This document shows, in pieces, positions 31,451-33,368 of a stretch of 64,000 nt of DNA. The stretch is from contig CM102285.1 of the NCBI GenBank assembly GCA_046563655.1, forward strand, positions 15,128,001 to 15,192,000, read 5' to 3'. Below the pieces are notes generated by a model. That model was not told where the DNA came from. It saw only the letters and a program-made list of their open reading frames with translations, and made no database searches. Position 1 is the first letter of the stretch; every line of letters begins with the position of its first letter. A program made the translations under genes and the position numbers. This DNA comes from Yuukianura sp. NJ FZ-2021. Taxonomy: Eukaryota.

Positions 31451-31900
31451 GACTGTATTTTCTAATTTACCAGTGTATTTAATCAATTGAAGTTAACTGT
31501 TTCTCAGCTGTGTTTCGGTGGAAGTGATGTTGAGAACTGACGTTTCACGAGTGGGGTAAATGAGGAACTTAATTAGAATCTGCGTTAGCTGACGATAGAC
31601 CAACTTGCAGTTGTTTTTGGAATGACGATACCCTAGATCAGATGTGAATTGGCCAACGAGGTGTGAAGTGAAGTCGAGGCCGGCTTTCTGACAGACAACT
31701 CAGACGATGTGGCAAAAATAAAACAAGGCGCCAACTTTAAATTCACAAACAAACAACCACAGCTGCGCCTTTTAGCTCGGCGGAATAAAATAAAATTTAA
31801 AATCAAATCATCCGCACCACACAATTATTCAAAGCTTGATTTTGAATTTTGATATTTTGAAAAACAAATTTTTGTCAATTTAAATTTGTCCAAAAGCTAA

Positions 31901-32123
31901 ATTACAGTTGAATTTTTATCAATTCAACCACATTCAAAAATTAGATTATAGGTGAATTTTTATAAATTCAACCACATCCAAAAATTGGATTATAGTTGGA
32001 TTTTTATCAATTCATCTAACAATTAAATTATAGTTGAATTTTTATAAATTCAACCACGTCCAGAAGTTAGAGTACAACTGAATTTTTGTCAATTCTACCA
32101 CGTAAAGGTGAATTTTTCTCAAT
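31901..32123. repeat. ~44-bp tandem repeat (about 5.5 copies) with an internal inverted repeat
   Basis: Unit attatagttgaatttttataaattcaaccacatccaaaaattgg; the core GTTGAATT...AATTCAAC is self-complementary. Confidence 0.85.
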
Positions 32124-32209
32124 AATTCACATAATATTTACAATAATTTGGCGCATGAATAATTTACATGTATGAGGAGAGTTGCTGAAAGTTTGACAAC
32201 AAAACCTGT

Positions 32210-32218
32210 GGCGCGAAA
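32210..32218 (-). promoter_or_regulatory. E2F-like site upstream of TFB5/ZNHIT1
   Basis: GGCGCGAAA (reverse complement TTTCGCGCC) about 140 nt upstream of the TFB5 ATG. Confidence 0.35.
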
Positions 32219-32356
32219 ACAAATTAAAAACTTACATTTTAATTTGAAGTTTTCAATTCCAATTCGCAATCGCAGGAAATAAATAAAATTTGTAACATTT
32301 TGCGTGCTTAAACAATTAACAATTTGTGTAAGTTTGTTCTAATGTTGTAATCAAGT

Positions 32357-32651
32357 ATGGTGAATGTTACAAAGGGGGTACTGGTCGAATGGTAAGTTGC
32401 GGTAGTATAAGGTAAAACGACACCTAAGCTTCTGTGTGCTTTTGAAATAAATTTTGTGTTTTTTTTTGAATGGCAGTGATCCAGCTATAAAACAGTTCTT
32501 GTTGAACTTGGATGACACTTACGCTCTTGGTCGGAAATTTGTGCTGCACGACCTTGACGAAAAGCATTTGTTTATCGAGGCTGACATTCTGAAGACGATT
32601 CAAGACAAAATTGATGAACTCCTGGAGAAAATGAGCGTTCGAATTGAATAG
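32357..32651 (+). CDS. GTF2H5: TFIIH subunit p8/TTDA (TFB5), 69 aa
   Basis: Exons 32357-32391 and 32477-32651 give MVNVTKGVLVECDPAIKQFLLNLDDTYALGRKFVLHDLDEKHLFIEADILKTIQDKIDELLEKMSVRIE, the Tfb5 signature. Confidence 0.96.
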
Positions 32652-32774
32652 ATTCATTTTTGGACAGCGTTATCATCGCAATAAACATAATTCGGCTCAT
32701 TTCCACTATAAACCAATCATCAAGCACTGCTGCCACTTTACTTGTCAATTGTTGTTACTCCTTCGTTGTGAGCA

Positions 32775-33368
32775 ATGGCGGCGGCAGCTCGAGCAAGAGA
32801 AGTTGGGAAGATCCTGGACCAAGTAGCGAGGTCACGGAGACAGAAAAAAGCTTTGGAAGCACTTGAGCAGGATAACTTTCACGATGAACCACACGCAGAT
32901 CTTGGTAAAAACTTAGACTCTAAATTCTAAACAAGTCTCAATGTTGTTTATTTTGCAGTTATGAACAAAAGGGCCCCTAAGTTCCAGGAAGCCCTTGATC
33001 CCACCAAGGGTACTTCAAGAAAACGAAAGTTTCGCTCAGCTGATCACTACAAAAAGTAAGTTCTTAGTCACAAAAACTTCAACTTTTGTGTCCTAAGTAG
33101 ATAACTCTGAAGTTCGCTAATTCTAAATGTTTCCAGATACCGAAAAAATATCCCGCAGATGATTGAAGAGGACATTCAGAAGAGACCAGACGGGAACTGC
33201 CCTTACGTTTCTGCTCAAGCGCCGCCTTCGAAGCTTCCTCCCCGCCATTTCTGCAATGTGTGTGGATTCCCCTCTACCTACACTTGTGTCCAGTGCGGAG
33301 TCAAGTACTGCTGTTCAAAGTGTTACAAAACGCATCAAGACACACGCTGCCTCAAGTGGACAGCCTGA
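32775..33368 (+). CDS. ZNHIT1: Zinc finger HIT domain protein 1 (SRCAP/SWR1 subunit, Vps71/Swc6 homolog), 152 aa
   Basis: Exons 32775-32904, 32959-33055, 33137-33368. LEALEQDNFHDEPHADL, and the zf-HIT motif PPRHFCNVCGFPSTYTCVQCGVKYCCSKCYKTHQDTRCLKWTA. Confidence 0.95.

What the first reader, a model, noticed from the sequence alone, without database searches (positions are those of the whole stretch)
32328..33368. TFB5 and ZNHIT1 may be one transcription unit, with the whole TFB5 CDS removable as an intron
Seen: only 123 nt separate the TFB5 stop (32651) from the ZNHIT1 ATG (32775), leaving little room for a promoter. A perfect donor GTAAGT at 32328 lies 29 nt upstream of the TFB5 ATG and is not used by the TFB5 model. 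A plausible acceptor (ttcatttttggacAG) ends at 32667, 16 nt after the TFB5 stop, and there is no ATG between 32668 and 32775. AATAAA sits at 32680-32685. Inference: one promoter yields either a TFB5 mRNA (upstream donor ignored, early polyadenylation) or a clean ZNHIT1 mRNA (32328-32667 spliced out), or else a dicistronic mRNA. That would couple a TFIIH subunit to an H2A.Z-deposition (SRCAP) subunit.
Basis: partly seen in the sequence, partly recalled or inferred. Interest (0 to 1): 0.75.

Follow-up and report, generated by a model that had tools for sequence, protein, structure and literature searches.

The report
Known two-gene arthropod messenger RNA
Two small nuclear-protein genes, TFB5 and ZNHIT1, very probably share one messenger RNA in this springtail-like animal, an arrangement already published for fruit flies, and the proposed splice that would cut the first gene out finds no support.

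Summary
All coordinates are right. The genome is an arthropod, probably a springtail. One transcription unit is very likely, but it is known: Drosophila Tfb5/p8 and CG31917/p18 (ZNHIT1) share a dicistronic mRNA, listed by FlyBase as 'all di/polycistronic'. TFB5 lies directly upstream of ZNHIT1 in 19 of 80 related loci, 5 of them intron-free in both ORFs. The new part, splicing 32328-32667 to delete TFB5, is unsupported. The donor is usable but ordinary. The acceptor scores below all 161 inferred acceptors, and 62% of spacer shuffles match it. None of 8 relatives has an upstream GTRAG, and 4 of 19 spacers contain no AG. No RNA run was listed, so a lineage-specific minor isoform is not excluded (about 10%). 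Best model: a capped dicistronic mRNA, with ZNHIT1 reached by reinitiation across an ATG-free spacer (inferred). Side finding: in copepod-like loci ZNHIT1 follows TRAPPC6 and ENY2 instead, with spacers as short as 1 nt.

The parts
32209..32218 (+). E2F-like motif in the probable promoter; the start site itself is unknown
   Evidence: the motif name is recalled, function not tested
32328..32333 (+). GTAAGT, candidate unused splice donor, probably in the 5' UTR
   Evidence: score 5.5, 28th percentile of 161 inferred donors; no GTRAG upstream in 8 of 8 relatives with the TFB5 ATG
32342..32350 (+). two-codon upstream ORF in weak start context
32357..32391 (+). TFB5 (GTF2H5, p8) coding exon 1, start codon with A at -3 and G at +4
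   Evidence: N-terminus matches full-length P0001
32392..32476 (+). TFB5 intron, 85 nt, conserved position in codon 12
   Evidence: donor 57th and acceptor 57th percentile; donor TGGTAA invariant in 4 of 4 aligned loci
32477..32651 (+). TFB5 coding exon 2 with stop TAG
   Evidence: Pfam PF06331, E 3.5e-17; 95% to P0001
32652..32774 (+). 123-nt intercistronic spacer, no ATG, no unusual structure
   Evidence: folding z-score +1.22
32654..32667 (+). candidate splice acceptor ending at 32667 (weak)
   Evidence: score 2.3, below all 161 inferred acceptors, no YTRAY at -45 to -9; matched by 62% of shuffles
32680..32685 (+). AATAAA, possible early poly(A) signal for a TFB5-only RNA
   Evidence: 3.2% in shuffles; present in 2 of 19 related spacers
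32707..32712 (+). TATAAA in the spacer, possible weak internal promoter for ZNHIT1
   Evidence: 3.9% in shuffles; in 1 of 12 related spacers
32775..32904 (+). ZNHIT1 (Vps71/Swc6/p18) coding exon 1, G at -3 and G at +4
32959..33055 (+). ZNHIT1 coding exon 2
33137..33368 (+). ZNHIT1 coding exon 3 with HIT zinc finger and stop
   Evidence: Pfam PF04438, E 1.4e-10; 87% to P0006
33491..33496 (+). ATTAAA, candidate poly(A) signal of the full transcript
   Evidence: use not tested

Best explanation
One promoter upstream of about 32300 makes one pre-mRNA. The three short introns are removed and the RNA is polyadenylated after ZNHIT1, giving a mature dicistronic mRNA that keeps both ORFs. This is the springtail-like orthologue of the Drosophila Tfb5/CG31917 dicistronic locus. 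TFB5 is translated first by cap-dependent scanning. ZNHIT1 is most likely reached by ribosomes that finish the 69-codon TFB5 ORF, resume scanning across the ATG-free spacer and reinitiate (inferred: about 55% reinitiation, 30% internal entry, 15% leaky scanning or minor monocistronic RNAs). Shown: gene order, gene models, ATG-free spacers, intron-free two-ORF contigs in relatives. From papers: the fly transcript. Inferred: that this species makes the same RNA, and the translation mechanism. The 32328 donor, 32667 AG and AATAAA are most likely incidental.
For: Fly orthologues are on one bicistronic transcript (PMC9514664; PMC7013941); FlyBase File S1 lists both as 'all di/polycistronic', 54 nt apart (PMC4528330); the pair is on ESTs out to Bombyx (PMC2276209). 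TFB5 is directly upstream in 19 of 80 ZNHIT1 loci. Both ORFs are intron-free on one contig in 5 of the 19 (L006, L010, L011, L019, L027; three lineages by my reading); L004 and L008 look partly spliced. The nearest full-length proteins share contig count and longest-contig length: P0001/P0006 4 and 1100, P0002/P0007 1 and 1619; that they share contigs is inferred. Spacers are 12-163 nt; 4 of 19 have no AG. 0 ATG in 13 representative spacers (975 nt) against about 12 expected, and 11 ATG in 799 nt of 3' UTR control. Both start codons have a purine at -3 in every locus where they were seen. TFB5 keeps 4-7 internal ATGs in 5 of 5 intron-free relatives and 5 here, which argues against leaky scanning.
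Against: No RNA data for this species. Short-read contigs can join separate overlapping RNAs: L004 also carries a spliced glutathione synthetase on the opposite strand. The contigs of the closest relative (P0001/P0006) were not among the 80 loci. On mechanism: a P-element in the fly p8 coding sequence left the partner's expression intact (PMC7013941; p18 level unchanged in p8-null testes, PMC5090060), which fits poorly with strict coupling to TFB5 termination; reinitiation after 69 codons is usually inefficient (recalled). An ATG-free spacer is also expected under every rival. The expected ATG count is somewhat inflated because in-frame ATGs would be read as the ZNHIT1 start, and I chose L043 for a group of five similar loci of which one (L041) has a spacer ATG.
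Confidence: 0.8

Rival explanations
1. One reading: the 32328 donor joins the AG at 32667, removing the whole TFB5 ORF (340 nt) and giving a clean ZNHIT1 mRNA, as a real main or minor isoform.
For: The product would have no ATG before ZNHIT1. The donor is within the range used here (28th percentile; modelled donors with T at -1 in neighbouring genes). One acceptor supported by homology scores only 2.7, close to 2.3. An AG lies 8-19 nt after the stop in L005, L019, L033 and L045.
Against: Acceptor below all 161 inferred acceptors, no YTRAY, another AG 16 nt upstream (12% of inferred acceptors have so short an AG-free zone). Shuffles match the acceptor in 62% and the donor in 48%. No GTRAG upstream in 8 of 8 relatives, only 5 of which have 77 nt or more; no spacer acceptor beats its shuffles (p 0.14-1.0); 4 of 19 spacers have no AG. 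The intron would have to pass a much stronger acceptor at 32476 (9.9). FlyBase lists no monocistronic form. Limits: the splice model is self-trained on introns of 45-110 nt, and the relatives are too distant to align in non-coding DNA.
Confidence: 0.08
2. The 32328 donor is used, but with the strong TFB5 acceptor at 32476 (149-nt intron). This removes the TFB5 start codon and leaves three short upstream ORFs (26, 6, 6 codons) before ZNHIT1, switching TFB5 off by alternative 5' splice-site choice.
For: Acceptor 32476 scores 9.9. None of the three ORFs overlaps the ZNHIT1 start. The methionine at residue 16, present in P0002-P0004 and in 5 of 5 intron-free relatives, is isoleucine here and in P0001, so no truncated TFB5 would start there.
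Against: The annotated donor 32392 scores higher (6.8) and gives a typical 85-nt intron. The upstream donor has no counterpart in relatives. No reads. The Met-to-Ile change may be neutral.
Confidence: 0.08
3. Two mostly separate genes: TFB5 ends after AATAAA 32680, and ZNHIT1 has its own promoter in the spacer (TATAAA 32707, initiator-like CCACTTT about 28 nt downstream) or inside TFB5.
For: Both motifs are present and correctly spaced. FlyBase says monocistronic forms of dicistronic loci usually arise this way (PMC4528330). Fly p18 persists when p8 is disrupted. Contigs can merge overlapping RNAs (L004).
Against: TATA in 1 of 12 related spacers, AATAAA in 2 of 19, both on read-through contigs. 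Spacers of 12-13 nt in L049 and L039 leave no room. FlyBase lists only dicistronic transcripts for this pair.
Confidence: 0.1
4. A nematode-style operon: the AG at 32667 is a spliced-leader trans-splice site and AATAAA ends the upstream RNA.
For: A spacer of about 100 nt resembles nematode operons (recalled). Trans-splicing occurs in copepods and amphipods (PMC7986045).
Against: The genome has TTAGG arrays including a contig end and no TTAGGC array, and ZNHIT1 groups with two springtails at 95/95. The same paper calls trans-splicing absent from insects and does not mention springtails. Here the AG precedes the AATAAA, the wrong order for such an operon. The acceptor is weak.
Confidence: 0.02

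Closest known systems
Drosophila Tfb5 (Dmp8) / CG31917 (Dmp18, ZNHIT1) bicistronic transcript (Herrera-Cruz et al. 2012, PMC3460457, not seen; cited through PMC9514664, PMC7013941, PMC5090060; FlyBase table in PMC4528330)
   Same: Same two genes, order and strand, short spacer, small TFB5 ORF first.
   Different: Spacer 123 nt against 54 nt; probably a springtail, not an insect; this copy has an extra GTAAGT upstream and AATAAA and TATAAA in the spacer, of no shown function; the RNA is not observed here.
Conserved-peptide uORF / main ORF pairs of dipterans (PMC2276209), where TFB5 is the 73-aa uORF of CG31917
   Same: TFB5 acts as a long conserved upstream ORF before ZNHIT1 on one RNA.
   Different: That study traced the pair on ESTs to Bombyx; here it is seen in a springtail-like genome and in branchiopod-like loci (L008 groups with Lynceus at 100/98).
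FlyBase dicistronic loci with alternative monocistronic transcripts made by splicing (PMC4528330)
   Different: The Tfb5 pair is not in that class in the fly, and no junction is shown here.

Membership tests
Arthropod TFB5-ZNHIT1 dicistronic locus | Upstream ORF encodes TFB5/p8 | tested here: met
   Pfam PF06331 E 3.5e-17; one locus in G000
Arthropod TFB5-ZNHIT1 dicistronic locus | Downstream ORF encodes ZNHIT1/p18 | tested here: met
   PF04438 E 1.4e-10; named hits are ZNHIT1; tree; one locus
Arthropod TFB5-ZNHIT1 dicistronic locus | Same strand, TFB5 first, short ATG-free spacer | tested here: met
   123 nt, no ATG; 12-163 nt in 19 relatives, 18 ATG-free
Arthropod TFB5-ZNHIT1 dicistronic locus | Host is an arthropod | tested here: met
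   TTAGG arrays at a contig start (motif assignment recalled); groups with Allacma and Orchesella at 95/95 on a short single-gene tree
Arthropod TFB5-ZNHIT1 dicistronic locus | Mature mRNA carrying both ORFs in this species | tested here: inconclusive
   No RNA holder listed; only relatives' contigs
Arthropod TFB5-ZNHIT1 dicistronic locus | Both proteins translated from the same molecule | not testable with these tools
   Needs reporter or ribosome-profiling data
Dicistronic locus resolved by ORF-skipping alternative splicing | Usable donor upstream of the first ORF | tested here: inconclusive
   28th percentile, chance-level, start site unknown
Dicistronic locus resolved by ORF-skipping alternative splicing | Competent acceptor in the spacer | tested here: not met
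   Score 2.3, below 161 of 161 inferred acceptors; rough self-trained model
Dicistronic locus resolved by ORF-skipping alternative splicing | Both sites conserved in relatives | tested here: not met
   0 of 8 with upstream GTRAG; 4 of 19 spacers without AG; relatives are distant
Dicistronic locus resolved by ORF-skipping alternative splicing | Junction reads | not testable with these tools
   No run listed
Spliced-leader operon | Spliced-leader RNA genes in the genome | tested here: inconclusive
   RF00198 found nothing, but the controls were silent too
Spliced-leader operon | Poly(A) signal upstream of the trans-splice acceptor | tested here: not met
   AG 32667 precedes AATAAA 32680

The most novel reading that the evidence does not exclude
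In this springtail-like lineage the ancestral dicistronic mRNA has gained a splice switch: the 32328 donor joins 32476 (deleting the TFB5 start codon) or 32667 (deleting the whole ORF), so one promoter can make a ZNHIT1-only mRNA and set the TFB5:ZNHIT1 ratio by splicing, unlike the fly locus, which is annotated as dicistronic only.
Probability: 0.12. Interest if true: 0.5.

Novelty: new member of a known kind. Interest (0 to 1): 0.2.

Why it matters
The dicistronic link itself is published, so this locus adds a springtail-like example and little else. The comparative data are of more use. They show the pair across several pancrustacean lineages with spacers down to 12 nt and free of ATG. They also show that in copepod-like loci ZNHIT1 stays last but follows TRAPPC6 and ENY2, which qualifies the review's 'all arthropods' and suggests that the downstream position of ZNHIT1, more than pairing with TFB5, is what persists. 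How a cellular mRNA translates an essential second ORF behind a 70-170 codon first ORF is open, and these loci make it testable.

Tried and rejected
RNA runs: no RNA holder listed, so no reads were laid; this is no evidence either way. The primary paper (Herrera-Cruz 2012) is not held. Rfam SL1 search of G000 was blank with silent controls. Earlier scan findings: nothing by place or by words. Donor 32328 to AG 32355: 28 nt, acceptor score -1.0, rejected. Donor 32392 to AG 32667: gives a 77-codon ORF overlapping the ZNHIT1 start out of frame, rejected as a route to ZNHIT1. Structured internal entry site in the spacer: folds worse than 186 of 200 shuffles. Conserved spacer or 5' motif: none in alignments of 5 and 4 loci. 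Nematode origin, first suspected from the short introns: rejected. A glutathione synthetase exon search gave mostly arthropod named hits without placing the species. The TRAP-alpha query was in the wrong frame, so upstream synteny was not tested. No complex prediction was run. Four fly gene symbols, recalled, were not found in FlyBase File S1.

Full report
Observation. All coordinates hold. TFB5 has two coding exons (32357-32391, 32477-32651; 69 aa), and exon 2 hits Pfam Tfb5 at E 3.5e-17. ZNHIT1 has three (32775-32904, 32959-33055, 33137-33368; 152 aa), and the last hits zf-HIT at E 1.4e-10. Each has one locus in the 98.7-Mb genome. The spacer is 123 nt without ATG. GTAAGT (32328), the AG (32667) and AATAAA (32680) are present. 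Neighbours are a divergent TRAP-alpha gene and a convergent glutathione synthetase.

Organism. TTAGG arrays, one at the start of contig C4, and no TTAGGC array point to an arthropod (motif assignment recalled). In a 57-row ZNHIT1 tree the protein falls with Allacma and Orchesella at 95/95. That is one short gene, so 'probably a springtail' is the right strength.

What is known. [quoted passage not shown] PMC5090060 (passages) recalls a p8-p18 interaction and reports unchanged p18 in p8-null testes. PMC2276209 (passages, part 1 of 2 of one results section, supplement passages) lists TFB5 as a conserved 73-aa upstream ORF of CG31917, on ESTs out to Bombyx. PMC4528330 (passages; File S1 rows; supplementary file 1 could not be searched) lists both genes as 'all di/polycistronic', 54 nt apart. 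The primary paper, Herrera-Cruz 2012, was not seen and may say more on isoforms and on which arthropods were checked. Searches (listings, with the passages above) showed no TFB5-skipping splice and no springtail case.

Related loci. One metagenome scan with a ZNHIT1 alignment confirmed 154 stretches and returned the best 80. TFB5 lies directly upstream in 19 of 80. Another 15 have TRAPPC6 and/or ENY2 there; the other 46 have neither and include truncated and apparently non-arthropod records that I did not classify one by one. In 5 of the 19 both ORFs are intron-free on one contig (L006, L010, L011, L019, L027; three lineages by my reading), while the codon-12 intron is present in the genomic-looking loci; L004 and L008 look partly spliced. 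The nearest full-length proteins share contig count and length in pairs, which suggests spliced two-ORF contigs in the closest relatives, but the P0001/P0006 contigs were not returned. One caveat is real: L004 also holds a spliced glutathione synthetase on the other strand, so assemblies can join separate overlapping RNAs.

The proposed skip. I trained a rough splice model on 264 kb of this genome (161 inferred introns of 45-110 nt); several of its glutathione synthetase introns fall at breaks between homology matches. The 32328 donor scores 5.5 (28th percentile) against 6.8 for the annotated donor. The 32667 acceptor scores 2.3, below all 161, against 9.9, 11.5 and 5.5 for the three real acceptors of the locus; it lacks a YTRAY (as do two of those three and 75 of the 161) and has another AG 16 nt upstream. 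One homology-supported acceptor scores 2.7, so the site is at the bottom edge, not impossible. Shuffles match the acceptor in 62% and the donor in 48%; the exact hexamer appears in 4.6%. None of 8 relatives with the TFB5 start has an upstream GTRAG (5 have 77 nt or more), while the true donor is invariant in 4 of 4 aligned loci. Four of 19 spacers have no AG, and no spacer acceptor beats its shuffles, although L005, L019, L033 and L045 have an AG 8-19 nt after the stop. The relatives are too distant to align in non-coding DNA, so a recent, lineage-specific switch is untested. If the donor is ever used, the strong acceptor at 32476 is the likelier partner; that removes the TFB5 start and leaves three short ORFs that end before ZNHIT1.

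How it most likely works. One promoter, three short introns removed, polyadenylation after ZNHIT1, and a mature mRNA with both ORFs. TFB5 starts in strong context and keeps 5 internal ATGs here and 4-7 in 5 of 5 intron-free relatives, which makes leaky scanning unlikely. Spacers are cleared of ATG: 0 in 13 representative spacers against about 12 expected, and 11 in a 3' UTR control from 12 of them (of the 20 spacers, seven near-duplicates were left out, one of which, L041, has an ATG). So ribosomes probably scan the spacer. With spacers down to 12 nt, reinitiation after TFB5 is my best guess (about 55%), internal entry second. The fly P-element result counts against strict coupling. The spacer has no unusual fold. 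PMC10275272 (passages) was read for background only. All translation steps are inferred. A TATAAA at 32707 with an initiator-like site about 28 nt on, and the AATAAA, leave minor monocistronic RNAs possible; neither motif is common in related spacers.

Side finding. In 14 of 80 loci TRAPPC6 precedes ZNHIT1 and in 6 ENY2 lies upstream; none has TFB5. L018 and L031 carry all three ORFs without introns (L017 too by tblastn), with spacers of 6 and 13 nt in L018; L029 has 1 nt between the TRAPPC6 stop and the ZNHIT1 start. One TRAPPC6 clusters at 90% with an Acartia fossae protein, and the six loci and three proteins of this type in the tree form one clade (100/97). PMC7986045 (passages) says polycistronic mRNAs had not been reported in copepods as of 2021; searches (listings only) showed no report of this trio.

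Verdict. The single transcription unit is very likely and already described in flies; this is a new, probably springtail, member. The intron-skip is unsupported and at most about 10% likely. No RNA run was listed, so the decisive test remains open. Interest 0.2.

Noticed in passing
L018:174-1461, L017:125-1409, L031:196-1880, L029:13-979, L053, L056 and others: In copepod-like loci ZNHIT1 follows TRAPPC6 (14 of 80) and ENY2 (6 of 80) rather than TFB5; intron-free three-ORF contigs with spacers of 1-13 nt in several suggest a tricistronic mRNA with translational coupling. Possibly unreported and more novel than the finding itself.
   Followed up: partly
L038:2478-3435: ENY2 lies upstream of ZNHIT1 with no TRAPPC6 match between them.
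   Followed up: no
   Followed up: partly
window 32478-32492: The methionine at TFB5 residue 16, seen in the other relatives examined, is isoleucine here and in P0001.
   Followed up: partly
window 31889-32101: Tandem array of 44-nt units, 5 copies, between the divergent TRAP-alpha and TFB5 starts.
   Followed up: no
window 31728, 32149, 32209: E2F-like motifs (name recalled) in the region shared by the two divergent genes.
   Followed up: no
L004:1-149: The sequence before TFB5 exon 2 looks like a retained intron; one frame resembles a transposase helix-turn-helix (recalled, untested).
   Followed up: no
L027:1-125 and L011:1-40: These similar contigs differ upstream of an AG about 35 nt before the TFB5 start, suggesting a 5' UTR intron in that lineage whose donor could in principle skip TFB5.
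   Followed up: no
G000:C5:2222940-2223144: Long internal TTAGG array away from a contig end.
   Followed up: no
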